Source: a virus
Lineage: Duplodnaviria > Heunggongvirae > Uroviricota > Caudoviricetes
Reading direction: 5' to 3' (one strand)
Length of the DNA stretch: 40,085 nucleotides
Virus record (IMG/VR): IMGVR_UViG_3300015177_000009
Location: 1 to 40,085 of that record
Shown: positions 3,972 through 40,085 of the stretch, in pieces
Layout of the letters: each line of letters begins with the position of its first letter
Numbering within the stretch: the first letter of the stretch is position 1
Program-made: the position numbers and the translations under genes
The notes under the pieces: model-generated
Told to the model about the DNA's origin: nothing
The model's database searches: none
What the model saw: the letters and a program-made list of their open reading frames with translations, nothing else

Positions 3972-4411
3972 TTGGCTGGGGTGTATGCGTTCTTGCGTTA
4001 GCCTTAGCCGATCGCTATTTGCTAAAACGCAAGGACATCACGCATTTAGAACTTGGTGATGTGGAAATTAAACCGGGTTTCATCCGGGTGCCGTTCAAAT
4101 ACCGGTCTAAATTCCCGTTTTTGCGCGGCGCAACGGTCAGATATTGGATCCGCGATGTTCAGAAGCCGACGACAGTGATTGAAGGCGAACAACGTTGTTT
4201 GACGTCGGCTGAACAGGGCGAAAACAGTGAATGGTTGTACATACCCACTGAATATATGGGTAAAGGAGAGCGACTGTGGCATTTCAGCGTCATGGTTACG
4301 CATGGCGACTCGTTCATTAACCCGTTGTATCGGATTTTCCCTGTTACTCAGCAAATCCGCAGAAGTTACGTAATAAATCTCGCACAGGATGTGTCAGATG
4401 ACGAAAAATAA
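3968..4411 (+). CDS. lydB: Lysis-timing protein (LydB-like)
   Basis: 147-aa ORF overlapping the lydA stop by 4 nt (translational coupling); position matches P1 lydB. Confidence 0.6.
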   Translation: MIGWGVCVLALALADRYLLKRKDITHLELGDVEIKPGFIRVPFKYRSKFPFLRGATVRYWIRDVQKPTTVIEGEQRCLTSAEQGENSEWLYIPTEYMGKGERLWHFSVMVTHGDSFINPLYRIFPVTQQIRRSYVINLAQDVSDDEK

Positions 4412-5000
4412 GTATGCAACGGTCGATTTTGACCAGGTTAATGAAAAGGGGCTGAAATCCCTTATCGCGGCGATCAATAAAACCGGTGTTACGGTAATTG
4501 AGGTTGACTCCAGCAACCGCGCAACAACGAAAGATGGCGTTAAAGTTAAAACCGCAAAGCTGGTTCTTAACGACGGACAAATTCTTGCCATACAGGTAAA
4601 CGATACTGGCGATATATCGTCTGTGAGGCTGAATGGAAAAGCTATTCCTAACGCTCAGTCGCCGGATATCAAGACGCTTGGTACCGTCATGGGGCAAGCG
4701 GCCCGCAAAAACTCCGCAAAATTCCAGAAATCACTGATCGCCAAAGCGAAACGTGTTGCCAATCCGGTAGACAAGAAACCGGCAGTAAAATCCAACTTTC
4801 AGCGCCTGCAAGAGGCAAAACAGCGGAATGCTCAGGTGGTTGCCGCTTATAAATCAGCGCAGAACTCGGTGTCTTTCAATCAACAGCAGATCACTGATTT
4901 GCGGGCGAAGCTGGATAAGGAGACAGGCCGACTCAATAACGAAAAGGCCCGAAATGGCGAACTCAAACGCCGTCTTAAGCAACTGAAAGCAGGAAATTAA
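4398..5000 (+). CDS. hdf: Hdf (homologue of a DarA fragment), Dar antirestriction/head morphogenesis operon
   Basis: Shares a KNSAKFQ-containing segment with the downstream DarA; likely start at the ATG at 4398 (listed ORF starts at 4389). Confidence 0.65.
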   Translation: MTKNKYATVDFDQVNEKGLKSLIAAINKTGVTVIEVDSSNRATTKDGVKVKTAKLVLNDGQILAIQVNDTGDISSVRLNGKAIPNAQSPDIKTLGTVMGQAARKNSAKFQKSLIAKAKRVANPVDKKPAVKSNFQRLQEAKQRNAQVVAAYKSAQNSVSFNQQQITDLRAKLDKETGRLNNEKARNGELKRRLKQLKAGN

Positions 5001-5001
5001 C

Positions 5002-6921
5002 ATGGAACAGTTCAATATCAATAAAGGGGTGACGATCAAGCCTGGGCTTGACGTGCTTCCCCCGCCAGTGACTGATGATGAATATCGCGCATTAATGGCC
5101 GGTGAGGACCGCTATCTGATGACGGAATCCAACACCCTGGAAGAAATCGAGGCTACGTTCTTCTATGCCACGCCGATCCACTGGTGTGCTACGGATTTAC
5201 TGGAGGCGATTAGTTCTACTCGTTTGCAGCTACACCGGACCATGCAGGCATTTGTCCGGGCATTGAACCAGAAGCTGAATGGTACCGGAATCTCTGCGGG
5301 GAGTGATAAAACGGGGGATGTGGCCCAGAACGGTGCACGCGCGATCGGCGGGGCTGAAATTGGCCGGGCACGTAACGTTAACGGGCTGCCGGTTCTGCCA
5401 GCCATTATTCCGCTCAGTGATGGTCAGACTATCAGCATTCTGTTTCATAGCCCGACAGCGGAAAACCGGATCACCAATAGCGATACGCTGATTGCTTTCC
5501 AGTTCTTACTGAATAAAAAAGACGTTACTCATACCGTTGCTCCGATGAGTGGACGTGATATGACGCTGGCGCAGGTCACCATGAAACTTGCCAACCTTGC
5601 AGAGAAAAACTCGGCAAAATTCCAGCGTGCGCAGAAGAAGAAAAAAGCCCTGGTTGATGAAATAACCCAACTACAGGCTGACAGTGACCAGAAAGAGGAT
5701 GCCATGAGCGACCTCGCGGATCAGGTGGCAGCGGTAGAAGGGCAGAAGGTAGATCTGGAGCAGAAAATTAACGCTGTTGCATCGGAAGCGGATTCTCTTT
5801 ATGAAGAGAATGAGCGTTTGCAGACGGAGATTGATCAGCTCAATCGCACAGGTGGGCGCGATACCATTGATCCAGCGGGGATGACTGGTGGGCACTCGCG
5901 CGCGCTGACGGATCGCCTTGCCAGTATCAAAAATCGTATGCATATGAACGGGGAAGTGACGCTCAGTAATGGAGCATCAATGAAGCAATTCATTGAGGAT
6001 GGCGAAGGGTATATCCAGTTAACCGATCCGGATGGCAGCGTATACATGATCAAGGCTAAATCCATACAGGGTGTGGACATGGCAGATGCGATCGGCAAGC
6101 TGTTTAAAGCCTATAAAGCGGGTAATGTATCGGAATATCTGGTCCAACCAGAAGAACATAAACCGGAAAACGTCGAACCTGAACCAGCGGAGGATACCGG
6201 TAGCTCTTCGCCTGAACCAGAAGTCTCTGTAGGTGCATATCGATATGCCCTGCAAATGCGTCCGGCGGCCCCTGGCGCAATACCTGAAGGTAACAAAGCG
6301 ATTCTGCCGCGCCCTGATGAAGGTGACTCGTATTATGAATATGCACGCTACGGCATTGCTACTTACGATACCCCGCTTTCTGATCAGCAAATGAGTGAGT
6401 ACGACCTGAAGTTATTGCCTCGCGAGGATTCTTTCGACTTCCTGGCGAAGACACTTACTAATGGTCCGTTTGGCAAATATGCACAAAAAGCTCTGGAGCT
6501 GGCCACCAGCTCACCAGACGAGTTCCGCGTAATGCTGAAAACTCAGTTTCAAAAAACTTTCCCCAATATTGTGTTTCCGGGTGGCGCTGGCACCGAGAAA
6601 ATGGTGCAGAGCATGATCAATGCATTGCAGACCGAAGTTGGTGAGATTACTCAGCCAGAACCGGCCCCGGCACAGCCTGATGAAACGGTTAGCGAAGCAG
6701 ATGCAGAGGCTAATAAAGCCATTGAATATCTCAATAACATGATGGATATGCAAAGCACTGACATGGCGGAGATCCGTAACGCCCGGGGCAATGTCCGGGA
6801 AGCGATTGCAGCCCTTCAGGCTGCCGGACGTTTTGAGGAAAACGAAGAGCTGGTTAACGGCGCAGCTCGCCACCTGGCTGATCTGTTGGTAGCAATCCAG
6901 AAAGCGGGGGTAGCGGCATGA
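5002..6921 (+). CDS. darA: DarA antirestriction / internal head protein
   Basis: 639-aa ORF with AGGAAA ribosome-binding site; coiled-coil and acidic regions; size and position match P1 DarA. Confidence 0.8.
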   Translation: MEQFNINKGVTIKPGLDVLPPPVTDDEYRALMAGEDRYLMTESNTLEEIEATFFYATPIHWCATDLLEAISSTRLQLHRTMQAFVRALNQKLNGTGISAGSDKTGDVAQNGARAIGGAEIGRARNVNGLPVLPAIIPLSDGQTISILFHSPTAENRITNSDTLIAFQFLLNKKDVTHTVAPMSGRDMTLAQVTMKLANLAEKNSAKFQRAQKKKKALVDEITQLQADSDQKEDAMSDLADQVAAVEGQKVDLEQKINAVASEADSLYEENERLQTEIDQLNRTGGRDTIDPAGMTGGHSRALTDRLASIKNRMHMNGEVTLSNGASMKQFIEDGEGYIQLTDPDGSVYMIKAKSIQGVDMADAIGKLFKAYKAGNVSEYLVQPEEHKPENVEPEPAEDTGSSSPEPEVSVGAYRYALQMRPAAPGAIPEGNKAILPRPDEGDSYYEYARYGIATYDTPLSDQQMSEYDLKLLPREDSFDFLAKTLTNGPFGKYAQKALELATSSPDEFRVMLKTQFQKTFPNIVFPGGAGTEKMVQSMINALQTEVGEITQPEPAPAQPDETVSEADAEANKAIEYLNNMMDMQSTDMAEIRNARGNVREAIAALQAAGRFEENEELVNGAARHLADLLVAIQKAGVAA

Positions 6922-7283
6922 CACTATCAGCTATTGAGTTAATGGATCTCAGCGATAAGTTGGATGCTCTGATGTCCAAAGCGGCTACCGCGAGTGGCAT
7001 GGAGTTGCTGGATATCAGCGATGAAATTGACCAGATCATGCAACAGATGGGGTACGGTGTGTCCGGCGGCAGTAGTGGCGAGGAAAAACAACCTTCGGTA
7101 CATGATGGTGTGCCAAAACTGGTTGCTGATTTCCTGGCTGATAAATTCGTCGATCAGAGCACCGATGCATTTATCGGTACGTTGCAGGACTTGAGTCAAT
7201 ATGTTGGCACATACATCGATCTGGACCAGGTTAAACAGCACACGGCGGCATGGATAGCCGCCAACTTTAAAGAGGCAGAGTAA
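6918..7283 (+). CDS. ddrA: DdrA (Dar operon)
   Basis: 121-aa ORF; ATGA start/stop overlap with darA; position as in the P1 darA operon. Confidence 0.7.
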   Translation: MTLSAIELMDLSDKLDALMSKAATASGMELLDISDEIDQIMQQMGYGVSGGSSGEEKQPSVHDGVPKLVADFLADKFVDQSTDAFIGTLQDLSQYVGTYIDLDQVKQHTAAWIAANFKEAE

Positions 7284-7295
7284 GGCGTAACAGGG

Positions 7296-10283
7296 ATGAG
7301 CTTAAGCGATCAGGTGGTAATGGCCACCAGCATAGAAACGCTGATCGAGCTGCTAAAAAACCTGCCCAATTACGGGCGGGTTTCGTATGTGGTGACAGCG
7401 AAGGGAGACGAGGTAAAAACAGCGTTTGATATCGTCGATGCCTCAGCTCTTTTGGTATCCAATACTCTGGACGGGAAAATTAACCCTGACTATCCCCAGG
7501 AACTTCAGCCGCGCGACCGGACCCGCGCATCCAGTCTTCTTCAGGTCAACCAGATATCCAAGGATTTGCGTCCTGCCCAGCTTACCGATTCCGGTTTATC
7601 CAGCCATGGCGCGCCGATAATTGGTGAGGACAATGCCGTTGAGTCAGGTAATGGACGGACCATGGGGATCATCAAAGCCTATCAGGACGGCAATGCGGAT
7701 CGGTATCGTGAGTACCTGATTGATCATGCGACCGAATTCGGCATACGACCTGAAAAGGTTGAATCAATGGCGGCTCCGGTACTGGTGCGCCGCCGGTTAA
7801 CTAAGGTTGACCGCGTTCAGTTTGCCAAGGACTCAAATATTTCTGATCTTCAGGAAATGGCAGCCAGTGAAAAGGCTTTTGTTGATGCCGACAGCATAAC
7901 ACTGGCGATGATGGCGCTGTTTAATCCGTCAGAAAGCGGAGATCTGCTTAGCCGCAGTAATGACGCGTTTATTCGCGGATTTATGACGCAAGTTGGTGCC
8001 ACACAGGCTGCTGGCCTTGTAACGGAAGATGGGCGACCAACACGGCAACTTGTAGACCGTATACAAAACGCGATCTTTGCCAAGGCATATAAGGATGCGC
8101 GCCTGGTAAGGATGGTTGCAGAAGAACCTGATCCGGATATGCGTAATGTTCTGACGGCGCTTAATGCGGCAGCCAATGATTTTGTCCAGATGCAGGCTTT
8201 GTCAGGAGAAGCGCATAAGCAGGCTGTGACAACTATTGTTGATGGCATTGAGACAGCGGATAGCCTCGATAAAAAGGCGCTGGCGGCATTGAAAGATGCG
8301 GTAGACCTGGTAAGGCAATCGAAGGAGTCAGGCCAGCATATTACCGATGTTATTGCTCAGGGGGATATGTTCAGCGAAACGGCCCCGGAAGTGAAAGCAC
8401 TCGCGTTGTTCATCGTCGCGAATAACCGTAGCGCGAAGCGTATGGCCACCGCCTTTAAGTTGATGGCTCAACGTATCAATGATGAGTTACAGCACCAGGG
8501 CCAGGCGCTGGGGGATATGTTTGGCGGCGGCGATGTGTCGTTACAGGATATCCTTCGCCAGGTGTCTCAGGAACTGGAAAACGAAGGCATGCAAGGGATA
8601 TCCGGCGGTCTTTTCGAGTCCGTTTCCGGCGGTAGTTACAACGGTGTTGCTCCGTATACCAGTTTGCTATTACATCGGGCATCCGGCATCAAAGACATTA
8701 TTCATCTGATCAGGCTGCTTTCCCGCACAGATCCCCAGGATGAACAGCTTGTACAAGTGCTTGCGTATTTTGTTCGAATGCCTGTTGCCGACGTGAAAAA
8801 ATGGTGCCGATTATTCGGTATCAGCAATTCGTTACTTCGCGGCTTGTTAAATCACGCATCCTCCCTTGGGCGCGATGGCTTTGACGAGATAGCGCAGGCG
8901 ATAAAAAACGGAGATATGCCACCAGCTATTGACTGGTTTTCCATTCGCCCAACCAGGGTGAAAGCATTCCTTAGCGCGGCGCATTCGGCATCACCATTGG
9001 CAGAAATGGTTCAGAGGTTGTCGCTCATATTCACAGACCATACCGCGTTGGGTGATCTGACTCTGGACGAGATGAAAGAAGCCTCCATTCAGTGGGCCGA
9101 TCAACAAAATGAGGTTAACTCAGACTTCTTGCCAGCATTCAGGAAGGCCGTTAGTAAAGCGGATGATGCCCGTGGAATTCTGAAGGCATTTAAGGCATTG
9201 CAAAGTCGTGTTAATAAACATGTCGGTGATATCGATGGGGTAACGGCGGAAGGCCGGGATATCCTTAAAGAGCACGGCATAACGCCAGAGTTTATTGATG
9301 AGATCAGGACTGATATGCAGCGTGAGGTCGTATCGTCCCTGCAAATCGTAGCCAGAGCGTTGGCAGATGCTAATCCGAAGAGTGCGGCCATTGTTAACCG
9401 GGTTATTGGTGATATTGAAGCATCGGAGGGCATGGGGGCGCTGAAACTCTTCCTTTCGCGAGCGTTTAATCCTAACGGCAATATTCTCCCTGGCATTATT
9501 GGTGAGGCTAAAAAGTATGTCAGTGAAGAAGAACTTGAGCAGCTTGACCAACTACTTAAGCGATTCTCATATAACCCGCAGATACGCTGGCAAATGAATC
9601 AGCGAAGTATGGGTTCGGTCCACGAGAAAGTGTTATCTGCCATGAACAGTGCGATCGCAAACTCATCCGTATCTGAAGAAAAAGCTCTTGAGTGGGCCGA
9701 CTCTTTTATCACAGAAGAAGTGGAAGAAGCCCGCGCTGGACAGAATGGTGGGATAGACCTGCGCAAGGAACTTGCTGATATTTATCGCCTGACTGGCGGG
9801 AAAATATCGACCTTATCAAAGGTAGTTCACCACCAGGGAAGGGCATATGCAAATCTAAATGGTGTTGTTGCTGTCAATTTGAACGATGAAAATGCAAGTG
9901 CACTGTGGCACGAGCTGGGTCATCATCTTGAGTACAGTAACCCTGGTTTGTTAGAGAAAGCCCGGTCATTCCTGAAGGCCAATGTTGAAGGGGATAAGCC
10001 ATCTTTCGTCAATATCGGTGGGCGTGGCAAGCCTGAATGGTGCTTCAGATCTCGATTGAGTAATATTTATATGGCGAAGGTATACCCGCCAGCCTCAGTA
10101 AGTAACACCGGGAAAATTCGGCAGAAATCACCGACTATTTCCAAAACGTCAGCAACGGAAGTATTCTCTATGGCTCTTCAGTTGTATCATGACAAAGAGG
10201 CCGCTGCCGCATCACTGATGAATGGTGACGGATTGCTGGAACTGTTATTAGGTGTGGCAAAGGAGCTAAATAATGCAGATTAA
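7296..10283 (+). CDS. ddrB: DdrB (Dar operon large protein)
   Basis: 995-aa ORF directly after ddrA; position and size consistent with P1 DdrB. Confidence 0.75.
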   Translation: MSLSDQVVMATSIETLIELLKNLPNYGRVSYVVTAKGDEVKTAFDIVDASALLVSNTLDGKINPDYPQELQPRDRTRASSLLQVNQISKDLRPAQLTDSGLSSHGAPIIGEDNAVESGNGRTMGIIKAYQDGNADRYREYLIDHATEFGIRPEKVESMAAPVLVRRRLTKVDRVQFAKDSNISDLQEMAASEKAFVDADSITLAMMALFNPSESGDLLSRSNDAFIRGFMTQVGATQAAGLVTEDGRPTRQLVDRIQNAIFAKAYKDARLVRMVAEEPDPDMRNVLTALNAAANDFVQMQALSGEAHKQAVTTIVDGIETADSLDKKALAALKDAVDLVRQSKESGQHITDVIAQGDMFSETAPEVKALALFIVANNRSAKRMATAFKLMAQRINDELQHQGQALGDMFGGGDVSLQDILRQVSQELENEGMQGISGGLFESVSGGSYNGVAPYTSLLLHRASGIKDIIHLIRLLSRTDPQDEQLVQVLAYFVRMPVADVKKWCRLFGISNSLLRGLLNHASSLGRDGFDEIAQAIKNGDMPPAIDWFSIRPTRVKAFLSAAHSASPLAEMVQRLSLIFTDHTALGDLTLDEMKEASIQWADQQNEVNSDFLPAFRKAVSKADDARGILKAFKALQSRVNKHVGDIDGVTAEGRDILKEHGITPEFIDEIRTDMQREVVSSLQIVARALADANPKSAAIVNRVIGDIEASEGMGALKLFLSRAFNPNGNILPGIIGEAKKYVSEEELEQLDQLLKRFSYNPQIRWQMNQRSMGSVHEKVLSAMNSAIANSSVSEEKALEWADSFITEEVEEARAGQNGGIDLRKELADIYRLTGGKISTLSKVVHHQGRAYANLNGVVAVNLNDENASALWHELGHHLEYSNPGLLEKARSFLKANVEGDKPSFVNIGGRGKPEWCFRSRLSNIYMAKVYPPASVSNTGKIRQKSPTISKTSATEVFSMALQLYHDKEAAAASLMNGDGLLELLLGVAKELNNAD

Positions 10284-14616: not shown

Positions 14617-14620
14617 GTGG

Positions 14621-17351
<2,731 letters not shown>

Positions 17352-17417
17352 TTAATTAGAATAATTTACATCGTGTTTGAACGGAATTTAACACTAGTCA
17401 CTTGTTAAGGATTACCA

Positions 17418-24185: not shown

Positions 24186-24218
24186 CAGGAGCGCCCGGTT
24201 CGCCGGGCGTCGCATAAT

Positions 24219-24659: not shown

Positions 24660-24904
24660 AAAAGCGATACTACACAGTAAAGCATGGGACGCTACGAGCA
24701 TTACAAGAGTTTGCTGATAAGCATAACGTTGAAGTGCGCAGGGAAGGGGGAAGTAAAGCTCTGCGCATGTACCGTCCGGACGGGAAATGGCGTACGGTCG
24801 TCGATTTCAAAACAAACAGTGTTCCCCAGGGCGTCCGCGACCGGGCATTCGAAGAATGGGAGCAGATCATCATAGATAACGCATTGCTCCTGAATGCAGA
24901 TTGA
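24656..24904 (+). CDS. lxc: Lxc-like small regulator
   Basis: 82-aa ORF overlapping the ulx stop by 4 nt; position as in P1. Confidence 0.5.
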   Translation: MKKRYYTVKHGTLRALQEFADKHNVEVRREGGSKALRMYRPDGKWRTVVDFKTNSVPQGVRDRAFEEWEQIIIDNALLLNAD

Positions 24905-24940
24905 CAATTTTGCCCGGAATTACCGGGCAAAATTAAGCAA

Positions 24941-26077
24941 CTATCCTTCGTTACGAAGATGCTTATCTAAGAATTTTGTAAACTGGTTTGTTGAGCCAAA
25001 ATAGTTGGGGTAGGCTTTTTTTAGTGACTTAATGTTATCTGTAGCAACGAGAACAGATATCAATACATTAGGATCAGAATCGTCTTTATTTAAGGCCTCA
25101 AGGGCTTCATCTGCTTCTTTTGTTTTAAATGCGCGAACAGACACTAGGAACATTTTTTTGTTTTTTGTATTGGGCTTGTTTTCTGCATTTCTCATTGTTA
25201 CTAAGTAATGCCCCTTATGATTTTTTGGCAACTTCTTAATCAAATTCGCGTCAGAAGTTAAATTTAAGGCGAGGGTGTATGTGCTTAGTTTCCTCCGTAC
25301 AGATAAAGTCCGTTCCAGCTCTTTAAGCTCGCCTTCATACTGAGATACAACCAGCTCATCAAGAGTGCAGGCTTTTTCGTCGTGCGCTACAAGACATCCG
25401 GCTAGATAGAAAAATCGTCTCCATTCTGGATGCCCTTCACTTGAAGTTTTCAGCTTGATACCTTCAAGGGTATCAATTATTTCAAGGCTAGTAGCCCAAG
25501 CATGCTGCAATTGAGTTCTTAACTGTATCTCAATCTTTGTTTTTCGCCACGGATATTGCTCCTCTTTCTGATCGAAGCAACTGTATGCAAGGTGGATTCC
25601 ACTATAGCCGCTGTCTTTGGGAGTAAGATAATCATACTCTTTAACAATCCTATGAACAGATTTGCTTTTTAAAAGACGTTCCTTTAGCTGTATCAACTGG
25701 TCTAAGTTTCTGACAATGGCCCTACATCCGCCAACGTCCTGCATCCGTGTTAATTTAATTGCATTGCTAGTTCTGCCTCCATCAAGACTAGGACGCTCTA
25801 GTTTATCTATTATGGTAGAAAGTCGCTTAAGTCTTCTTGCAACGAGAATCTTTTTGTCTTTGTCAACCTTAGCAGCTGCTCTTGCTAAATGATTTTTCAT
25901 GAGCATTAATGGATAAAGATGCAGCTCACGGAAATTTTGTATCATTTCAATAGCTTGCTGCCTTTCTTCGTCACTACACCCGTGCCTTATCAATTGAGCA
26001 GCCCTATCAATTTGAGATTTTGAATATTTCAACTTGCATTTTTGACTTTGATAAACTTCATTCCCCATTGCTTTCAT
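24941..26077 (-). CDS. Fused toxin-antitoxin with RelA/SpoT-homologue (toxSAS) domain, CapRel-like
   Basis: Synthetase-fold motifs GGRTSNAIKL…DVGGCRAIV and YSGIHLAYS…EIQLRTQLQHAWA; about 120-aa C-terminal extension; GC about 35 percent; occupies the P1 res/mod locus. Confidence 0.7.
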   Translation of the reverse strand: MKAMGNEVYQSQKCKLKYSKSQIDRAAQLIRHGCSDEERQQAIEMIQNFRELHLYPLMLMKNHLARAAAKVDKDKKILVARRLKRLSTIIDKLERPSLDGGRTSNAIKLTRMQDVGGCRAIVRNLDQLIQLKERLLKSKSVHRIVKEYDYLTPKDSGYSGIHLAYSCFDQKEEQYPWRKTKIEIQLRTQLQHAWATSLEIIDTLEGIKLKTSSEGHPEWRRFFYLAGCLVAHDEKACTLDELVVSQYEGELKELERTLSVRRKLSTYTLALNLTSDANLIKKLPKNHKGHYLVTMRNAENKPNTKNKKMFLVSVRAFKTKEADEALEALNKDDSDPNVLISVLVATDNIKSLKKAYPNYFGSTNQFTKFLDKHLRNEG

Positions 26078-26170
26078 CCATTTTAAATGATTTACATGCT
26101 GTTACATCTAATGATAAAGCGGTTAGAAAATCAATGGAGAATATAACCACAAAATTACTGTATATAATTG

Positions 26171-27720: not shown

Positions 27721-27806
27721 ATTTGGCTTATGCCCCGTATATGAAGAACTAATCTCGATAATAACAGAGAAGTTCTGTTTTAATAAAAACCAAAATAATA
27801 AATATA

Positions 27807-31048: not shown

Positions 31049-31900
31049 ATGATAAATTATGTCTACGGCGAACAACTGTACCAGGAGTTCGTCAGCTTCA
31101 GGGATCTCTTTCTAAAAAAAGCTGTTGCACGCGCCCAACACGTTGATACAGCCAGCGACGGTCGTCCTGTACGCCCGGTTGTCGTTCTACCGTTCAAAGA
31201 AACTGACAGCATTCAGGCTGAAATTGATAAATGGACTTTAATGGCGCGGGAACTGGAACAGTACCCAGACCTCAATATCCCAAAGACTATTTTATATCCA
31301 GTGCCTAACATCCTTCGCGGTGTGCGTAAGGTTACAACTTATCAGACAGAAGCTGTGAACAGCGTCAACATGACCGCTGGCCGCATTATTCATCTGATTG
31401 ATAAGGACATTCGCATCCAAAAAAGCGCGGGGATCAATGAGCACAGTGCGAAATACATAGAGAACCTGGAAGCAACAAAAGAGCTAATGAAGCAGTACCC
31501 GGAGGATGAAAAATTCCGTATGCGCGTACACGGCTTTAGCGAAACAATGCTGCGCGTCCACTACATTTCCAGTAGCCCTAACTACAATGATGGTAAATCA
31601 GTTAGTTACCATGTGCCACTGTGTGGCGTGTTTATCTGCGATGAAACTCTCCGTGATGGAATCATCATCAACGGTGAATTCGAAAAAGCAAAATTTAGCC
31701 TTTATGACTCCATAGAACCGATCATCTGCGACCGCTGGCCGCAAGCAAAAATATATCGCCTGGCAGATATTGAAAATGTAAAAAAACAAATTGCCATCAC
31801 TCGCGAAGAGAAAAAGGTTAAGTCAGCCGCATCAGTTACGCGCAGCCGTAAAACCAAGAAGGGGCAGCCAGTAAACGACAACCCCGAAAGCGCGCAATAA
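31049..31900 (+). CDS. c1: C1 repressor of lysis
   Basis: 283 aa; N-terminus MINYVYGEQLYQEFVSFRDLFLKK matches P1 C1 as I recall it; GGAGGAGG ribosome-binding site. Confidence 0.93.
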   Translation: MINYVYGEQLYQEFVSFRDLFLKKAVARAQHVDTASDGRPVRPVVVLPFKETDSIQAEIDKWTLMARELEQYPDLNIPKTILYPVPNILRGVRKVTTYQTEAVNSVNMTAGRIIHLIDKDIRIQKSAGINEHSAKYIENLEATKELMKQYPEDEKFRMRVHGFSETMLRVHYISSSPNYNDGKSVSYHVPLCGVFICDETLRDGIIINGEFEKAKFSLYDSIEPIICDRWPQAKIYRLADIENVKKQIAITREEKKVKSAASVTRSRKTKKGQPVNDNPESAQ

Positions 31901-31932
31901 ATTATGCCCGGCATCAACCGGGCATTCTTCCA
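31901..31932. terminator. Bidirectional hairpin terminator between convergent c1 and the antirepressor-like gene
   Basis: 8-bp stem ATGCCCGG / CCGGGCAT with loop CATCAA; T-rich on both sides. Confidence 0.5.
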
Positions 31933-33045
31933 TTATTCAGCCGCCACCGGTTTTAACAAGCCAGCATCGAGCAGTTTACGCGTCAACCACTGCTGGCCTT
32001 TACCCGTTAATTGAGGCGTCAACCGTATCTGGTAGCCATCTTCATCATCCAGCACCACTTCTTTCACCGTGAAATACCCCGCATTGATGTACTGCTGGAA
32101 CGGCACATTTTTACGTCCACCGGACGCTATCAGGATGCCGTTCTCCCGTAACCAGGCAAACAGCGCGTTTTGCTTAAGTCCAACAACCTTTGCAAAATTC
32201 CCAATCAGGATCCCTTTAGCTACTGATACCCGGTCGGCAAAATCGACTTTAGGAGCGGCGGCCACCAGCTGCTGATTTAGCTGGTGGGCTTTCTGTTCCA
32301 GAAGCTGCTTTTGTTCAGCCAGTTCGGCAGCCAGGCGCAGAGCTTCTGGAAGCGTCTGGGGGATTGCAACCGGTTGCTGTTCTTTTTGCCGGAAGTAGCT
32401 GTCTTCCAGTTTTTCAAAGAATGCCCATGCTTCATTTGTGTCCACGATCTTAGACATGCGTGCAGCGCCGCGCTCTGTCCAGAGTGTAAGGCTTCTGGCG
32501 TTCTTACCAACAGAGTAACTTCCGGTTACTCTGTTCTTAAATTCTCTTAATTTTAAACCAGTTAGAAGAAAGTAATGCTTACCTTCTTCAAAGCGGTCAA
32601 GGTTGCGAGACAAATTGTTGCGAATATTGGCTTCATCGACCCCATACCCTCTAGCAAGAGTTTCGGTTGTCACGACACGTACTCCCTGCCATTCCAGAAC
32701 GGGAATTTCATCCGGCTGATTCTGAACAACCACCAGTTCCGATTCCTGAACTGAAGGTGCATAAATTTTTTCTGATTTAACGTTAGTTGCTTTCATTCTG
32801 TGTGCCTCCTTGCGTGCTTCGGCTGCGACGGTTGCGTAATTCAGATGACCCTGTTCGAGCAGGTATTCACGGATATCGGTTAGCAGAATGCGGTGAACCG
32901 CGTGTTTGTCCTTTCTCCGGTAAAGTTGTTTGGTGATCATGAAGTAGTTGGCAATAACGCCCGGTATATCCCTGGTACTGATACAGGCAGTGTGCTGTTC
33001 AATTGCCTCGATCATCTCTTCACGGGTGACTAATGACGTTCTCAT
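31933..33045 (-). CDS. Antirepressor-like protein (ORF6N/Bro-N-like central domain plus KilA-C/ANT-like C-terminus)
   Basis: Central GVRVVTTETLARGYGVDEANIRNNLSRN…HYFLLTG and C-terminal VSVAKGILIGNFAKVVGLKQNALFAWLRENGIL resemble phage antirepressor domains; ATGA overlap with the upstream small ORF. Confidence 0.65.
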   Translation of the reverse strand: MRTSLVTREEMIEAIEQHTACISTRDIPGVIANYFMITKQLYRRKDKHAVHRILLTDIREYLLEQGHLNYATVAAEARKEAHRMKATNVKSEKIYAPSVQESELVVVQNQPDEIPVLEWQGVRVVTTETLARGYGVDEANIRNNLSRNLDRFEEGKHYFLLTGLKLREFKNRVTGSYSVGKNARSLTLWTERGAARMSKIVDTNEAWAFFEKLEDSYFRQKEQQPVAIPQTLPEALRLAAELAEQKQLLEQKAHQLNQQLVAAAPKVDFADRVSVAKGILIGNFAKVVGLKQNALFAWLRENGILIASGGRKNVPFQQYINAGYFTVKEVVLDDEDGYQIRLTPQLTGKGQQWLTRKLLDAGLLKPVAAE

Positions 33046-33263
33046 AGTCCCTCCTGAGCAGAAGCGTTAACAGGGAGGCACCAGTAACTGAGAGAATTGC
33101 GCGAATCGGTAGAAAAGCGGGCAGAGAAAATACAGGGAGCATCCGGAAGCTGAGAACGTGCCTCATCTTCTGTCGGTGCAATAACGAAGTGATAGTGACG
33201 TTTTTGGCAGGAGTAAAAGCGCCAGATAAATTCAGAATGAGCAGGGGTAGGGATAGTAGCCAC
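33042..33263 (-). CDS. Small protein translationally coupled to the antirepressor-like gene
   Basis: 73-aa ORF with AAGGAGG ribosome-binding site about 8 nt before its GTG start; stop overlaps the downstream ATG. Confidence 0.45.
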   Translation of the reverse strand: MATIPTPAHSEFIWRFYSCQKRHYHFVIAPTEDEARSQLPDAPCIFSARFSTDSRNSLSYWCLPVNASAQEGL

Positions 33264-33448
33264 AATGGCAGCCTCCTTTTGCTAATTTAAGGAGCTACCG
33301 CGTGAGGTCTCAATCTCAATGGCGGTAGCACTGACTGGGTTGAGACTACCGGCGCAAAAGGGAACCGGCCTGCCTTTCGGCAGCCCAGCCAGCACTACCA
33401 TTGATCTCTGAGCTAAACGCTACGTATGGCTGTGCGATGGCATGACAC

Positions 33449-33471
33449 AAAAAAAAGACGCTTTTGGCGTC
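33449..33471 (-). terminator. Intrinsic terminator downstream of pacB
   Basis: On the minus strand: GACGC-CAAAA-GCGTC hairpin followed by eight T. Confidence 0.6.
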
Positions 33472-33603
33472 TGTGTCGCCTTTTGCATTATCCGGGGTCT
33501 CAATCCCGGCACCCGTTTTAATGAGGTGCCTGATAAGCATAAACCGAAAATGCCTCAAGGCGCAAGAGGTCAGGTTCAATGTAACATCGGCAGTTAAAAA
33601 ACA

Positions 33604-33620
33604 CAATTTATTAGAGCAAA
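33604..33620 (-). promoter_or_regulatory. C1 repressor operator immediately after the pacB stop codon
   Basis: CAATTTATTAGAGCAAA, about 15 of 17. Confidence 0.65.
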
Positions 33621-33623
33621 TAT

Positions 33624-35108
33624 TCATTCATTAAGCCATGCCAGAGCTTCATCAACCTGCGCTTCGTCTTCGACGCTAAGCACTTCATCCTGGGGAACAT
33701 AATCCGCCAGCATAGCGAAACAATATGTATCCCAATGGTCTGGTGAGTGCAGGTTGAGTTTTTTCTTCATATCCTCCTTACTCATCACCTTCCATTGACC
33801 TGCGGAGTTAATCCCTACAGGGATTTTCGACGCTTCCTCAATAGTTTCATTACCCTTATCCAGTCTCATACGACCAGATTTTACGGCCTCTGCGGCTTGA
33901 ACGTTGGCATAAGCACGTTTATCAAAGTACAGGCTCTTATCTTCACGGCTATGCATCTTTTTACCCCAGCGTATACGCTGTACGGTAATACCATAATACT
34001 CGTACATCAGATCCGCCGTTGCTTTACCCAGGCCATCGCCGTCTATCGCTATGGTGATATTTGGGAATCGCTCAGGATTACATTCTGCGAAAATTTTGGC
34101 GGCAAGCTGCGTTTCTGTAACGTCTGTGTATTCCAGCATTCGATAGTTGATTACACGGCGTTTATTTCGCTGGCCGGACACCATCATGATATTGATAACG
34201 GACTTATCCCGTCCCGTACCACCAGCAACGTCCACACATGCAAGCCAGCCCCATCCTTTGGCAATCTTGACTTTCCGCCGCGTTGCGCGTTCAACCTCAT
34301 CACGTCCAAGAAGGAAGCCATCCTGTGATTTAGGGAATAGGCCGCGTACCTTAATCATGTACATAGGGTTATCACGCCCGCCGTACTCCGCCAGCTTCAT
34401 TTTGATAAATGCTGGCGTTACCAGCGGTGATTCCTCACTGTTAAGCGTGATCGCCGTATAAACGCCATCAGGGTTACCAGGACGCTTGGCCAGTTTATGG
34501 TGTGTATCGTAGAAATAGCCGCTTGGGCGTGTAGGCTGTGACAGTAATAAGATGCGGTTATCCTGTCCGGTAAGAGCACCGGTGATGATACCGAAAGCTC
34601 TATCACTGACACCGGAGGCTTCATCGATAATATACAGAAGATGATCTGCGTGTTCACCGGCGAGAGCTTCTTCACTTCCCAGACGAAAGCCCTTCGGTAC
34701 TACAGTCCATACACCTTTACCAGTAACCTCATAGAAAGCGGTTTCTGTCAGAACAAAATAATCAGCAAGCCATGGGAAACGGCTGGTGGCAGTAGCCCAG
34801 TTTATCTTGATGTACTTGAATATACCGGTCATTACCTGCTGAATTTTGTTCGCAACGATAATAGCGCGGGCACCGGGATACATGATTATGAACAACATGA
34901 TCATGATAGAAGTCATGTCTGATTTCCCGGTACCGTGACCAGACGAAACAGATGTCTTGCTACCCTGTTCCTGCACAGACTCAATAATCAGATCCTGCTG
35001 CCAGGTAGGTGTTTTGCCGAACAAAACATCAGCGGCCGCAATCCAGTCATAACGATATAGCGCCACCAGCTCGCGCCAACGTGGATCCGTTACGCAACTT
35101 CTGGCCAT
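33624..35108 (-). CDS. pacB: Terminase / pacase large subunit PacB
   Basis: 494-aa ORF overlapping the pacA stop; size and position match P1 PacB. Confidence 0.88.
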
Positions 35109-36301
35109 TAATCATCATCCCCGTATAGCTTGCGGGTAACTTCTTCGTCTTCCTCCTCGTCTTCGTCCAGGTCTTGTTCCAGCCATGGGTCGTTTGATAC
35201 ACCTTCAGTATCAACATCTCCATAACCGCCTGTATCAACGATATCGGCGATTTCTTCCCTACGCTGCTCAATCCACAATGCGGCATCGGCGCGGCGGTTG
35301 GCGGCCCGTTCTCGCGCAACTTTGTCCAGATCTTCAAGAGAAGGGCCACCGACGGCTGTTTGCCTTTCCTCATCATCGGTATTGGTCTTAGGAGCACGCA
35401 GATCGGCTTTGATTTGCTCCAGCATCAGGGGGGGAACTTTCCCGCCATGCGCCTCGATGAATTCAGCTGCTTCCAGCACTGACCAGTTATTTTCACGCTT
35501 TCGTTCGTATGCCAGCTTAACAATGCCAGCTTGCCCCATAGACAAAGCGTGCTTTTCCGCCTCCCGGCTTTCTTTTCGATAGTTATTCCGGATGCTGTAA
35601 ATGGTGTTGATCAGGCTGCTTATCTGCGCGGAACAGCTGTTTAGCATGCTCGCGATACGGTATTCAGGCGGAGTACCTTCATCATCGTCTTTTTTCTGAT
35701 CGCGCATTTCCTGCACCAGGCGAATACACGTATCCCTGGCGTTCTCCAGCATAAGGAGATGAGAGAGAGACTTTTCCAGAAGAGTGGTTTCCAGAACATC
35801 AGCCCCGGACCGACGCAACATAGCGCGCGCGGCCTTCCGCGCTTCAACGTTATCTATCAGGTAATCGCCAGCTTCGAATTCAAAGCGTTCACCATCATCA
35901 TCCAGGGTGTCGCGTTCCAGGCGATCACGTAAGGTCCGGTGGGCGCGGGTGATCACGTCATGATCATCAGAACGATCATTTATGCGCTTATTCTGGCGCT
36001 TCGCGTTCTCGACTGCGGCACTGACAACAGCATTAATTCTTTGTTTTTCAGCCATTTCAGCCACAACGTGATCACCTGCACGTTGATCATTAGCGTGATC
36101 AATGATCATGCTTTTTAGTGGCTTCCTGACTGGCTTATTTGGCTTGCGGCTGTCCGCTGTCCTGGTGTCTTCTTTGAAGGCACGGAGATAACGACGTGCG
36201 GTATTAGGGTTAAGATTAAACTCGGCGGCATACTGTGCGATGGTGTAACCACCATCTCGCGCCAGGCGAGCAAAATTCTTCTTGTGATCGTCCCAGGTCA
36301 C
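35108..36301 (-). CDS. pacA: Pacase subunit PacA (contains the pac site)
   Basis: 397-aa ORF with an HTH-like N-terminus; the hexamer-repeat pac site lies inside it. Confidence 0.88.
35949..36108. other. pac packaging site
   Basis: Three hexamers (TGATCA at 35949 and 35960, CGATCA at 35972) and four TGATCA (36069, 36084, 36096, 36103) flanking an AT-rich spacer of about 90 bp; every hexamer carries a GATC Dam site. Confidence 0.8.
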
Positions 36302-36386
36302 TTATGCTTCCTTTCGTAAAAACTCTTTTTGACGCGAGGGTAACGAAAGTCACATGTCAAAAGGCCCGGAACGGGCAAGCAATCAA

Positions 36387-36839
36387 TCAGATACGTGCGG
36401 ATGTGGCATTACCGTAATGACGGTGCTGACGGGCCACCTTATTGAAAAGTTGACGCGCCATTACCCAAGGCTGGTGCTCCCGGCGTTCCTTTTCGTCCTG
36501 CGTCATATAGAGTTCGTTCTGGAGTTTTTCATCAAACCGGCGCGGAGCGCGGCTACGGCGAAAGAATTCAGGATTCAGAGAGTGGATCTGAAATCTACGT
36601 GGGCGTGTACTGTCATCAATCAAAACAGACGAATACTTAGACACAGCGATAGCCTTTAAGCGCAGATAAACATCGCGCTTATCGACATCCAGATGCGGGT
36701 ATTCCTTTTCAAGAATTGCTGCGAGTTCTTTCGCTGATAGAAGAGATTTAGTGCGGATCATGTAATCCGCAATCTCGTACGATGTTATTCGTGAGTGATT
36801 TATTTCCATGAAGTGGCGTCCCTGCCAGTTAAGTAACAT
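36387..36839 (-). CDS. lpa: Late promoter activator (Lpa-like)
   Basis: 150-aa ORF with a C1 operator in its upstream region and pacA downstream, as in P1. Confidence 0.65.
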   Translation of the reverse strand: MLLNWQGRHFMEINHSRITSYEIADYMIRTKSLLSAKELAAILEKEYPHLDVDKRDVYLRLKAIAVSKYSSVLIDDSTRPRRFQIHSLNPEFFRRSRAPRRFDEKLQNELYMTQDEKERREHQPWVMARQLFNKVARQHRHYGNATSARI

Positions 36840-36909
36840 CCTGTCACCTACTGATTAGCCCATGTCAACTAATCAACGTGGAATATAATACCCCAGATTA
36901 AATAAATAG

Positions 36910-36926
36910 CAATACATTAGAGCAAT
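36910..36926 (-). promoter_or_regulatory. C1 repressor operator upstream of lpa
   Basis: CAATACATTAGAGCAAT, about 14 of 17. Confidence 0.65.
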
Positions 36927-36927
36927 T

Positions 36928-37971
36928 TTATCTAACGTTCGACGAGTGACTTGTGATAGCGCCGACTCCAAGCGCGTAATCAAAGAACAATCGTTGATGC
37001 ATCGCCAGCCTACCGTGCGTCTTCTCCCAATTATCGCGGTCACGCTCAATATCACGCTGGCATGACTGGCACAGAGGAATAGCATAAATGTCATGCGCGC
37101 ATAATCGACTATGACGAACGATATAAGGCGTAATGTGAGCGCCAGCTCCCGCAGCTCCACAGCCACAGCATGGACGGGAAGCCACAAAGTCCATGTACTC
37201 AGGCAATTTTAGCGATTGAAGTTTTGGTATTTTGAAATGCGCCATACCTGGGTCGGAGTCAACATCCACAGGGCATACTTTTGCACGCATCGGCGCGGCG
37301 CGTTCTTCCATCATCTGAACATATGCTGTAGCGCGATCGTCATACGGGCGAATATCCGCCTCTTTCAGAGGTCCGCTATCCTGCGTTGCGGCTTTCATCT
37401 TATTTATTGATATACGGCAAACTTCTTCCGGCATCAGGTGCATCATGTTGCGCATGAAAGCCCACCAGCACAGCTCCTGAATACTTAAATCATGCCCATC
37501 TGAAAGGCCCATTTCCTGCCGGGCTACATCCAGTATCCAGTTAACGCGATTATTATGCAGCGTTTCTTTCAGCTCATTAAAACCACGCATCCGGTAATGG
37601 TTATCATGATGCCAGCACAACAACGCCGCGCTATTGTCTCGTTCAGCGTGAACAATATGGCTGTCACACCAGCTACGATCTGCGGCCTGGCATTGCCCCT
37701 CTTTCCTGCGCAACCACGCCACCAGCGCGTCAATTCCACCAAGACGACGAAACACTTCATCGCTGTTAAAAAACGGCTGCAATGCCTCGTTTGTTGCCAT
37801 GGTTTGCTCGGTAACAACGAGGCCGTCTTCCATGTGCTCGATTAACTCACGCGGCACCGGCTCCATAATAAATTTACGGCCAGCCTCCACCAGCTTTCTG
37901 ACCTCCTGATCCACTTTGAACGTGGCGAGGCCAAGCTCTTTCTGTACAAAGGGAGTAATTACGGCTTTCAC
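36928..37971 (-). CDS. PdcB-like protein (post-doc) with Cys/His-rich C-terminus
   Basis: 347-aa ORF downstream of doc/pdcA; C-terminal cluster RPCCGCG…H…CAHD…CQSCQ. Confidence 0.55.
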
Positions 37972-37998
37972 ATCACACCTTTAATCACTGATTGGGCT

Positions 37999-38178
37999 TT
38001 ATCTGCTGCCCGGCATTCTCTGTTTAAGCACAACCATTTCCTGACGGCATAACACAGCAATAGCGGTCCTGACTCCAATTTGCTTACCAACCAGGTATTG
38101 CTTTACCTTGCGGCGACTCACGCCATCAAGAAGCATCTTTAACGCTTCACGGGACAACTTGTTGTATTTACGTGCCAT
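37999..38178 (-). CDS. PdcA-like small protein
   Basis: Small ORF directly after doc; likely start at MARKYNK (listed ORF extends to 38199). Confidence 0.45.
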   Translation of the reverse strand: MARKYNKLSREALKMLLDGVSRRKVKQYLVGKQIGVRTAIAVLCRQEMVVLKQRMPGSR

Positions 38179-38182
38179 TAAT

Positions 38183-38563
38183 CTACTCCGCAGAACCATA
38201 CAATCTACGTAACGTGTCGGCGACAGAAGATACAGATATCTCTCCGGTCGCAGCCCCTACGGTAAGGTCTACCAGTTCAGGTGAATCAAATACCTGCACC
38301 CCGTTACGGCGTAGAAATAGCAGCGCGCTGTTTAGCGCGGTACGCTTATTGGCATCATTGAATATATGCCCTCTCGCTGTAGCCACCAGGTAGGTGGCGG
38401 AGACTTCGAAAAGGTCGGTGATCTCTTCGTAGGCAACTCTGGCCTGAACTCTCCCGATAATGGCCTCTGCCCTACCCGGATCTGACATTCCCGGCAGGCC
38501 GCCGTAGCGGCTTATATTCGCATCATGAAGCGCAATAAGTTCTTCCGGTGATATATGCCTCAT
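38183..38563 (-). CDS. doc: Doc toxin (Fic fold)
   Basis: 126 aa; Fic motif [11 protein letters not shown]; start overlaps the phd stop. Confidence 0.95.
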
Positions 38564-38784
38564 TATCGGTTAACCAGTTCCTTGTTGGTGGAGTCCAGGG
38601 TGTCAAACAGGGATGCAAATTCAGCATCCAGCGCCGCTTTTTTGTAGGCTTCGAAAGTAGCCTTGCTGACAATTACTGCTGGCTCACGGCCTCTGCGGGT
38701 GATTTCAACCTCTTCCCCGGCTTCAACATTGTTGAGCACTTCAGAAAGGTTGCCACGCGCGGTACGGAAGTTAATGGATTGCAT
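38563..38784 (-). CDS. phd: Phd antitoxin
   Basis: 73 aa from [17 protein letters not shown]…; YefM/Phd family. Confidence 0.95.
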
Positions 38785-38830
38785 AAACACCTCGTGTACT
38801 CGTTATGTGTACACAATTATAAACTTCACA
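38785..38830 (-). promoter_or_regulatory. phd-doc promoter with Phd operator palindromes
   Basis: Minus-strand TATAAT (revcomp of 38816-38821) followed by palindromes TGTGTACACA (38806-38815) and GAGTACAC, then GAGG before the phd ATG. Confidence 0.7.
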
Positions 38831-38960
38831 GGCATAAAGCACCAGCACTTTGCAGCTTAACAAACCTCTAGGCAGGTCATTCGTAGCCTAATATCCGAAC
38901 TGCTAAAGCATCCAAGTTGCTGTAGAATCACATCCAATTACATAAGCCTGAAATAAGTGG

Positions 38961-40085
38961 ATGAAAATGACAAGTATTCAACAACGTGCAGAGCTTCATC
39001 GTCAAATCTGGCAAATTGCTAACGATGTCAGGGGTTCGGTCGATGGATGGGATTTTAAGCAATACGTTCTGGGCGCACTTTTCTACCGTTTTATCAGCGA
39101 AAATTTTTCCAGCTATATTGAAGCCGGTGATGACAGTATCTGTTATGCGAAACTGGATGACAGCGTAATTACTGATGATATTAAAGACGATGCCATCAAA
39201 ACTAAAGGCTACTTCATCTACCCCAGTCAGCTTTTCTGCAACGTAGCGGCGAAAGCAAATACCAATGACAGACTGAATGCAGATTTAAACAGCATCTTCG
39301 TTGCTATCGAAAGTTCTGCTTACGGTTATCCTTCAGAAGCAGACATCAAAGGTCTGTTTGCTGATTTCGATACCACCAGTAACCGCCTGGGTAACACCGT
39401 TAAGGATAAAAATGCCCGCCTGGCTGCGGTCCTGAAAGGGGTTGAAGGCTTAAAGCTTGGCGACTTTAACGAACATCAGATTGACCTGTTCGGCGATGCC
39501 TATGAGTTCCTGATTTCTAACTATGCGGCGAATGCTGGTAAGTCAGGCGGCGAGTTCTTTACACCGCAGCACGTCTCTAAGCTGATTGCACAACTGGCAA
39601 TGCACGGCCAGACCCACGTTAACAAAATCTACGACCCGGCAGCAGGTTCCGGTTCGCTGTTGTTGCAGGCTAAAAAACAGTTTGATGACCATATCATCGA
39701 AGAAGGTTTTTTTGGTCAGGAAATCAACCATACGACCTATAACCTGGCGCGTATGAACATGTTTTTGCACAACATCAACTACGACAAGTTTGATATCAAG
39801 TTGGGCAATACGCTGACTGAGCCGCACTTCAGAGATGAAAAACCGTTTGATGCCATCGTTTCTAACCCGCCGTATTCGGTGAAATGGATTGGCAGCGATG
39901 ACCCGACACTGATTAACGATGAGCGTTTTGCCCCGGCTGGCGTTCTGGCCCCCAAATCAAAAGCTGACTTCGCCTTTGTACTACATGCGCTGAACTATCT
40001 TTCTGCCAAAGGTCGTGCTGCGATTGTTTGCTTCCCGGGTATTTTTTACCGTGGCGGCGCGGAGCAGAAAATCCGTCAGTATCTG
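38961..40085 (+). CDS. hsdM: Type I restriction-modification DNA methyltransferase subunit HsdM (3' end lies outside the window)
   Basis: N6-adenine methyltransferase motifs [10 protein letters not shown] (motif I) and NPPYS (motif IV); N-terminus [25 protein letters not shown] is typical of the EcoR124-like (type IC) family as I recall it. Confidence 0.88.

What the first reader, a model, noticed from the sequence alone, without database searches (positions are those of the whole stretch)
38961..40085. Type I R-M methyltransferase gene beside phd-doc, in an element that also carries the full Dar antirestriction system
The hsdM is divergent from phd and runs off the window, so hsdS and hsdR probably follow. 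In P1 the host-specificity system is the type III res/mod pair at a different locus, which here is replaced by a toxSAS gene. This element therefore seems to have swapped restriction type and location. It also packages DarA/DarB, which in P1 protect the phage's own DNA from type I enzymes, an interesting combination of offence and counter-defence.
Basis: partly seen in the sequence, partly recalled or inferred. Interest (0 to 1): 0.5.

Follow-up and report, generated by a model that had tools for sequence, protein, structure and literature searches.

The report
Known EcoR124-type hsdM in P1-like plasmid
The window ends in the first 72% of a textbook EcoR124-family (type IC) restriction-modification methyltransferase gene, sitting next to phd-doc in a P1-like phage-plasmid; this arrangement was described in 1997 and occurs in hundreds of sequenced plasmids, so it is real but ordinary.

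Summary
Window 38961-40085 (+) is an uninterrupted 375-codon ORF that runs off the window. It is 374/375 identical to EcoR124II HsdM (PDB 7bst, E=1e-256). It has the HsdM_N and N6_Mtase domains and the DPAAGSGS and NPPY motifs. It is divergent from phd (170 nt away).

The window is a P1-like phage-plasmid with all six Dar genes at full length. P1 homology stops at window 38860, which corresponds to P1 87970. In relatives the cassette's other border is P1 84482. The P1 GenBank record already marks both borders as homologous to the flanks of the EcoDXXI and R124/3 hsd loci (Tyndall et al. 1997, Mol Microbiol 23:729).

The same junction is in 635 PLSDB plasmids, 210 of 5,426 complete E. coli genomes, and phages phi456 and vB_EcoM-673R5. 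In relatives hsdS (2-3 TAEL repeats) and a 1,038-aa hsdR follow, and are usually intact.

The res/mod slot holds a CapRel-type fused toxSAS (75% identical to CapRelSJ46). The "swap" is not one coordinated event, because all four combinations of the two slots exist.

Verdict: already known, low interest. Whether this element's own hsdS and hsdR are intact cannot be seen, because the sequence ends.

The parts
38961..40085 (+). hsdM, 5' 375 of about 520 codons, type IC (EcoR124 family); cut by the window end. PGAP in relatives starts at the second ATG (38967).
39633..39656 (+). AdoMet-binding motif I, DPAAGSGS (aa 225-232)
39864..39875 (+). catalytic motif IV, NPPY (aa 302-305)
38861..38960 (+). 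cassette-specific leader upstream of hsdM. P1 homology ends at 38860 (= P1 87970, the last bases of humD). No consensus sigma-70 promoter was found by the simple scan.
38563..38790 (-). phd antitoxin (the 73-aa form ends at 38784)
38183..38563 (-). doc toxin (Fic/Doc)
36928..38199 (-). pdcA (37999-38199) and pdcB/DUF968 (36928-37971), the P1 backbone to the left of the cassette
4389..10283 (+). hdf (4389-5000), darA (5002-6921), ddrA (6918-7283), ddrB (7296-10283): the dar operon, with ORF lengths identical to P1
17418..24659 (+). darB (17418-24185, 2255 aa) and ulx (24219-24659, 146 aa)
24941..26077 (-). CapRel-like fused toxSAS toxin-antitoxin (378 aa). It is the only gene in the 1.27-kb segment (24903-26169) that replaces P1 res/mod between lxc and mat.

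Best explanation
The ORF is the first 72% of hsdM of a type IC (EcoR124I/II, EcoDXXI, EcoprrI family) restriction-modification cassette. The cassette is carried by a P1-like phage-plasmid in the variable slot between phd-doc and pap, where P1 itself has pmgT...humD (P1 84483-87969).

By analogy with EcoR124I/II, two HsdM and one HsdS form the M2S methyltransferase. This N6-methylates one adenine on each strand of a bipartite target chosen by HsdS. Addition of HsdR gives the ATP-driven translocating endonuclease, which cuts unmethylated incoming DNA. In a lysogen the system defends the host-prophage pair against foreign phages and plasmids, and it marks the element's own DNA. Dar proteins, packaged in the virion, separately shield the element's DNA from the type I enzymes of the next host.

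Shown: the gene's identity, family, motifs, position and left border; the completeness of Dar; and the presence of hsdS and hsdR in relatives. Inferred: that this particular element continues with intact hsdS and hsdR, that they are expressed, and what their target sequence is.
For: 374/375 aa identity to EcoR124II HsdM. Pfam HsdM_N plus N6_Mtase. PADLOC MTase_I, E=1.4e-84. The window is collinear with P1 at 92-98% nt identity, ending exactly at P1 87970. In relatives the cassette runs hsdM-hsdS-hsdR and P1 homology resumes at P1 84482, before pap. The P1 GenBank record annotates these same two borders as homologous to the flanks of the EcoDXXI and R124/3 hsd loci. Tyndall et al. [quoted passage not shown] The junction is held by 635 PLSDB plasmids, 210 of 5,426 complete E. 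coli genomes and two deposited phages. Among 32 IMG/VR contigs with this hsdM, 20 of 20 with at least 2 kb downstream have hsdR. Over those loci plus three annotated relatives (L001, L002, L041), hsdS is 376-422 aa with 2-3 TAEL repeats in 18 of 23, and hsdR is an intact 1,038-aa ORF in 14 of the 16 covered to its end.
Against: The window stops inside hsdM, so hsdS, hsdR and the right border are not seen for this element. The three most similar public contigs (99.86-100% identical) also break inside hsdM. Some relatives have decayed systems. These include an IS5 in the hsdS of phi456, a split or half-size hsdS in L029, L028 and L001, premature stops in hsdR of L008 and L031, and plasmids where the match ends within or just after hsdM (H99-H101). 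No consensus promoter was detected upstream. Activity is untested.
Confidence: 0.9

Rival explanations
1. The system in this particular element is decayed or orphan. hsdM would be truncated by an IS or rearrangement shortly after the window end, or hsdS or hsdR would be disrupted. The locus would then only methylate, or do nothing.
For: A minority of relatives show exactly this. Plasmid matches end at query positions 1813-2391 of the doc..hsdR query (H99-H101). phi456 has an IS5 in hsdS. hsdS is split in L029, and only 111 or 208 aa long in L028 and L001. hsdR has premature stops in L008 and L031. All near-identical contigs break inside hsdM.
Against: Most relatives are intact: hsdR in 14 of 16, full-size hsdS in 18 of 23. 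The 375 codons present carry one conservative difference from the crystallised enzyme, so there is no sign of decay. Contig breaks in a conserved multi-copy gene are an expected assembly artefact.
Confidence: 0.25
2. One reading: the element underwent a linked exchange in which the type III res/mod system was given up and replaced functionally by a type I system at a new place. This would be a distinctive design of this element.
For: In this window res/mod is absent and hsdM is present. vB_EcoM-673R5 and pTB222 share the combination.
Against: All four combinations exist, so the slots vary independently: P1 (res/mod plus humD), phi456 (res/mod plus hsd), NZ_CP102949.1 (100% identical toxSAS slot plus humD), and this window. 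Both slots are listed among eight generic variable regions of P1-like phage-plasmids. 635 plasmids hold the hsd junction but only 51 hold the toxSAS slot.
Confidence: 0.05
3. Assembly chimera: an hsdM fragment from another replicon was joined to a P1-like contig by misassembly.
For: The window comes from, or closely resembles, metagenome assemblies whose contigs end in hsdM.
Against: The identical junction occurs in hundreds of finished plasmids and genomes and in three independent assemblies. It matches the published breakpoint.
Confidence: 0.01

Closest known systems
EcoR124I/EcoR124II (type IC R-M of plasmid R124; PDB 7bst/7bto)
   Same: HsdM is 374/375 identical over the part present, with the same start (MKMTSIQQ...), domains and motifs. 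Relatives have the family's hsdM-hsdS-hsdR order, TAEL repeats in HsdS and a 1,038-aa HsdR.
   Different: Here the carrier is an apparently complete P1-like phage-plasmid backbone rather than a conjugative plasmid. The specificity (hsdS) is unseen.
P1-flanked type IC hsd loci (EcoDXXI, EcoprrI, R124/3; Tyndall et al. 1997) as annotated in P1 NC_005856
   Same: The left border is the same (P1 87969/87970, directly upstream of phd-doc). In relatives the right border is also the same (P1 84482).
   Different: None detectable. This window is a modern sequenced instance of that arrangement.
Escherichia phages vB_EcoM-673R5 (ON470615) and phi456 (OR339795); plasmids pYLPI7b and pTB222
   Same: The doc-phd/hsdM junction is the same at 97-98.8% nt identity. 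673R5 and pTB222 also share the CapRel-like gene in the res/mod slot.
   Different: phi456 keeps res/mod as well. pTB222 is an IS-riddled P1 remnant inside a larger plasmid. The hsdS alleles differ.
Phage P1 EcoP1I (type III res/mod) plus Dar
   Same: It has the same logic: a prophage-borne restriction system combined with virion-packaged antirestriction proteins.
   Different: P1's system is type III, lies between mat and lxc, and is absent here. That slot holds a CapRel-like gene instead.

Membership tests
Type IC restriction-modification (EcoR124/EcoDXXI/EcoprrI) | HsdM closely related in sequence to known family members. Families were defined by complementation, hybridisation and antibody cross-reaction (PMC3874209). 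| tested here: met
   374/375 identical to EcoR124II M. The next PDB HsdM scores E=2.5e-63, and EcoKI (type IA) only 1e-11.
Type IC restriction-modification (EcoR124/EcoDXXI/EcoprrI) | N6-adenine methyltransferase motifs I (AdoMet binding) and IV (NPPY/F), plus the HsdM N-terminal domain | tested here: met
   DPAAGSGS at aa 225-232 and NPPY at aa 302-305. Pfam PF12161 and PF02384 score above their cut-offs.
Type IC restriction-modification (EcoR124/EcoDXXI/EcoprrI) | Gene order hsdM-hsdS-hsdR with all three genes present | not testable with these tools
   The window ends at codon 375 of hsdM, and near-identical contigs end there too. The feature is met in relatives with the same junction.
Type IC restriction-modification (EcoR124/EcoDXXI/EcoprrI) | HsdS central conserved region with 2-3 TAEL repeats that set the spacer length (PMC3874165) | not testable with these tools
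   hsdS is not in the window. In relatives, 18 of 23 loci have hsdS of 376-422 aa with 2 or 3 TAEL repeats.
Type IC restriction-modification (EcoR124/EcoDXXI/EcoprrI) | Locus flanked by P1 DNA: phd-doc upstream and the pap side downstream (Tyndall 1997; P1 GenBank notes) | tested here: met
   The left flank was tested in the window and ends at P1 87970. The right flank (P1 84482) was seen only in relatives. The P1 record's misc_features give the same borders.
Type IC restriction-modification (EcoR124/EcoDXXI/EcoprrI) | Methylation of a bipartite target and ATP-dependent restriction of unmodified DNA | not testable with these tools
   This needs a methylome and plating assays.
P1-like phage-plasmid (Punavirus) | Collinearity with P1 across lysis/dar, head, cre-lox, c1, pac and addiction modules | tested here: met
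   Eight blocks covering about 32.5 kb of the 40 kb are collinear with P1; seven are 92.5-98.1% identical, and the cin block is 71.6%.
Dar antirestriction system of P1 | All six virion proteins encoded: DarA, DarB, DdrA, DdrB, Hdf, Ulx (PMC12707154, PMC12810830) | tested here: met
   The ORFs have exactly the P1 lengths within 96.8-98.1% identical blocks. Function was not tested.
CapRel fused toxSAS toxin-antitoxin (side feature in the res/mod slot) | Single polypeptide with an N-terminal RelA/SpoT toxSAS domain and a C-terminal antitoxin-like sensor domain, homologous over its full length to CapRelSJ46 | tested here: met
   E=5e-186 to 7ztb_A over aa 4-374, with 277/371 identical and the SGYSGIH tyrosine (Y155 of CapRelSJ46) conserved. 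7ZTB is CapRelSJ46. SJ46 carries the gene in the same lxc-mat slot. There is no separate antitoxin ORF in the 1.27-kb insert.

The most novel reading that the evidence does not exclude
The library I could search reports Dar protection only for type IA (EcoB/EcoK), IB (EcoA) and StySA systems (and BREX). I found no statement about type IC. It is therefore not excluded that the type IC cassette, which travels almost exclusively with P1-derived DNA and has highly variable hsdS alleles, is the one type I family that Dar does not neutralise. In that case it would serve mainly as a weapon between competing P1-like phage-plasmids, excluding Dar-armed relatives that carry a different hsdS allele.
Probability: 0.15. 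Interest if true: 0.45.

Novelty: already known. Interest (0 to 1): 0.1.

Why it matters
It matters little as a discovery. The finding re-identifies the classic P1-flanked type IC hsd cassette, which has been known since 1997.

Its practical value is for annotation. The window is a P1-like phage-plasmid whose three known cargo hotspots are all filled with defence or toxin modules. These are a HipA-like kinase, a CapRel-like toxSAS and a type IC R-M system, next to an intact Dar set. This illustrates how such elements stack independent defence cargo.

The only open biological question it touches is whether Dar protects against type IC enzymes.

Tried and rejected
1. Extending the element beyond 40085. 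An exact-protein look-up of PdcB found three contigs: ENA k141_3419 (40,265 nt, 99.86% identical), and two Logan contigs (100% identical). All end inside hsdM, at window positions 40064, 39062 and 39318. An exact-pattern scan of IMG/VR with the last 37 nt gave 32 contigs. None is identical to the window (best 98.8%), so they serve only as relatives.

2. The promoter/terminator scan of 38700-39100 found nothing. I saw only a weak TAGAAT -10-like element by eye and make no claim from it.

3. I tried to estimate precisely how many junction-bearing plasmids keep hsdR. The doc..hsdR query gave 626 records with at least 80% coverage. That count also includes records without phd-doc (for example H90-H93), so it cannot be compared directly with the 635 junction records. 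I used the IMG/VR loci for proportions instead.

4. Literature on Dar versus type IC. Piya 2017 (PMC6011833) and Lobocka 2004 (PMC523184) are not held. The reviews and papers I could read mention only EcoA, StySA, EcoB, EcoK and BREX.

5. The full text of Tyndall 1997 is not in the library. I rely on its title as cited and on the P1 GenBank notes. The abstract details I recall are from memory.

6. I considered and rejected a coordinated type III to type I swap (see rival explanations) and an assembly chimera.

Full report
**What is at the coordinates.** From the ATG at 38961 the + strand reads 375 codons without a stop, up to the last base of the window. The product is 374/375 identical to residues 1-375 of the 520-aa EcoR124II M protein, whose structure is solved (7bst_D, E=1.4e-256). 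The next-best solved HsdM scores E=2.5e-63, and the type IA EcoKI M protein only 1e-11. Pfam finds HsdM_N (aa 12-159) and N6_Mtase (aa 173-375, cut at profile position 201 of 311 by the window end). PADLOC calls it a type I methyltransferase. The AdoMet motif DPAAGSGS (aa 225-232) and the catalytic NPPY (aa 302-305) are present. On the opposite strand, phd (38563-38790) and doc (38183-38563) are confirmed. The two transcription units are therefore divergent, with a 170-nt spacer.

**What the window is.** A BLAST comparison with P1 NC_005856 shows that the window is a P1-like element read in reverse orientation.
- 3000-10582 corresponds to P1 31836-24246 (lydC to hxr, including hdf, darA, ddrA, ddrB).
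- 12117-24902 corresponds to P1 22532-9752 (isaA, ssb, lyz, pro, prt, darB, ulx, lxc).
- 26170-31899 matches mat, ref, c8, cre, lox, coi and c1; within it, 26980-27791 has no P1 match.
- 33626-38860 corresponds to P1 93204-87970 (pacB, pacA, lpa, pdcB, pdcA, doc, phd).

All six Dar ORFs have exactly the P1 lengths. Four segments have no P1 counterpart:
- 10583-12116, a HipA-like kinase with an HTH domain, in the isaA-IS1-isaB slot.
- 24903-26169, in the res/mod slot.
- 31900-33625, an Ant-like gene between c1 and pacB.
- 38861 onward, the hsd cassette.

**The cassette and its borders.** P1 homology ends at window 38860, which corresponds to P1 87970, the end of humD. In plasmid pYLPI7b and phage phi456, which share the junction at 97-98.8% identity, hsdM is followed by hsdS and a 1,038-aa hsdR. 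P1 homology then resumes at P1 84482, just before pap. The cassette therefore replaces P1 84483-87969 (pmgT to humD).

The P1 GenBank record itself carries misc_features stating two things:
- 84263-84482 is 96% identical to the sequence downstream of the EcoDXXI hsd locus, and 84399-84482 is 98% identical to the sequence downstream of hsdR on R124/3.
- 87969-88647 is 98% identical to the sequence upstream of the EcoDXXI hsd locus.

[quoted passage not shown] It is cited as reference 364 of PMC12707154. I could not read its text. What I recall of its abstract is that functional phd and doc lie upstream, with identical downstream breakpoints in all systems. That recollection is from memory, but it agrees with what I measured.

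**How common it is.**
- The 1,986-bp doc-phd-hsdM query is held at 80% coverage or more by 635 of 72,556 PLSDB plasmids.
- The 3,186-bp pdcB-to-hsdM query is held by 210 of 5,426 complete E. coli genomes.
- The junction is also held in full by two deposited phages, vB_EcoM-673R5 and phi456.
- A 2022 survey of P1-like phage-plasmids lists res-mod, isaA-IS1-isaB and pmgT-to-humD among eight generic variable regions (PMC9603915).

The window's three cargo insertions at these three slots therefore sit at known hotspots.

**Do hsdS and hsdR follow?** This cannot be seen for this element. The window stops in hsdM. The three most similar public contigs also stop inside hsdM: ENA k141_3419 at 99.86% identity, and two Logan contigs at 100%. 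This is what assemblers do with a conserved gene present in several contexts.

In relatives the answer is yes.
- Of 32 IMG/VR contigs containing the last 37 nt of the window, all 20 with at least 2 kb downstream have hsdR.
- Over those loci plus three annotated relatives (L001, L002, L041), hsdS is a single 376-422-aa ORF with two or three TAEL repeats in 18 of 23. The TAEL repeats are the type IC hallmark that sets the spacer length (PMC3874165). The N-terminal target-recognition regions vary.
- hsdR is an intact 1,038-aa ORF in 14 of the 16 loci covered to its end.

Decayed versions also exist. phi456 has an IS5 in hsdS. L029, L028 and L001 have a split or half-size hsdS. L008 and L031 have premature stops in hsdR. 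In some plasmids the match stops in or just after hsdM. I put the chance that this element has a complete, intact system at about 0.7-0.75.

**The 'swap' and the toxSAS.** The res/mod slot holds one 378-aa ORF (24941-26077, -) with a RelA_SpoT domain, matching PADLOC candidate PDC-S33. It aligns over its full length to 7ztb_A (E=5e-186, 277/371 identical). The tyrosine corresponding to catalytic Y155 is conserved. 7ZTB is CapRelSJ46, the fused toxSAS toxin-antitoxin of the P1-like Salmonella phage SJ46, which senses a phage capsid protein (PMC9712102). SJ46 carries it in the same lxc-mat slot.

The two slots vary independently, and all four combinations exist:
- P1 has res/mod plus humD.
- phi456 has res/mod plus hsd.
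- NZ_CP102949.1 has a 100% identical CapRel slot plus humD-hot.
- pTB222 and vB_EcoM-673R5 have the CapRel-like gene plus hsdMSR.

Only 51 plasmids hold the CapRel slot, against 635 with the hsd junction. There is no evidence for a coordinated exchange of restriction type.

**Mechanism.** By near-identity with EcoR124II, HsdM with HsdS forms the M2S methyltransferase, and with HsdR the translocating endonuclease. Type IC enzymes establish themselves in naive hosts through an assembly-based restriction alleviation that does not depend on ClpXP (PMC12707154). That property suits a cassette carried on mobile DNA.

[quoted passage not shown] Protection is reported for EcoA and StySA (DarA/Hdf) and for EcoB/EcoK (DarB, Ulx, DdrB). 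Carrying both is not paradoxical and is what P1 itself does with EcoP1I. I found no statement on whether Dar covers type IC. This is the only open point, and it is the basis of the low-probability 'novel case'.

**Verdict.** The feature is real, correctly typed and already known. The interpretation overstates its singularity. Interest is low.

Noticed in passing
window 24941-26077 (-), within the insert 24903-26169: The single gene replacing P1 res/mod is a CapRel-type fused toxSAS toxin-antitoxin. It is 74.7% identical to CapRelSJ46 (PDB 7ZTB) over its full length, with the catalytic-site tyrosine conserved. The divergence lies partly in the C-terminal sensor region, so its trigger specificity may differ. 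51 PLSDB plasmids carry this allele in the same slot.
   Followed up: partly
window 10616-11980 (-), within the insert 10583-12116: A 454-aa ORF with an N-terminal winged-HTH (ArsR/MarR-like, aa 24-63) and a HipA_C kinase domain (aa 221-383) fills the isaA-IS1-isaB hotspot of P1. No separate HipB-like ORF was noted. It may be a fused HipA-type toxin/regulator or a defence gene.
   Followed up: no
window 31900-33625 (ORF 31933-33045, -): There is an extra module between c1 and pacB that P1 lacks. It consists of a 370-aa antirepressor-like protein (ORF6N plus the KilAC/ANT domain) preceded by two small ORFs. At the corresponding place, relatives are annotated with Icd-like and Ash-family proteins (pTB222), an Icd protein (vB_EcoM-673R5), and 'Ant2' (phi456).
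   Followed up: no
window 26971-27720 (-): A DUF4145 protein (235-249 aa) lies between mat and ref, in a segment (26980-27791) with no P1 match. It is also present in pTB222.
   Followed up: no
window 1-3000: The invertible tail-fibre region differs from P1. The cin-like invertase (2290-2868) is only 71.6% identical to P1 cin at the nt level. The tail-fibre, tail-fibre-assembly and collar-domain ORFs (65-2268) have no P1 nucleotide match, which suggests a different host-range cassette.
   Followed up: no
window 39062-40085; loci L005, L006, L007: Three independent public assemblies of near-identical elements, and the window itself, all terminate inside hsdM. This suggests that these samples contain more than one context for this conserved gene, giving a repeat-induced contig break.
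   Followed up: partly
L001 4140-4766 (pYLPI7b) and L028: Some P1-like elements carry a half-size hsdS (208 aa, one TRD). Truncated type IC HsdS subunits of this kind are known to dimerise and recognise palindromic targets (EcoR124I delta50, EcoDXXI deltaC, NgoAV; PMC3874165). These may be natural examples.
   Followed up: no
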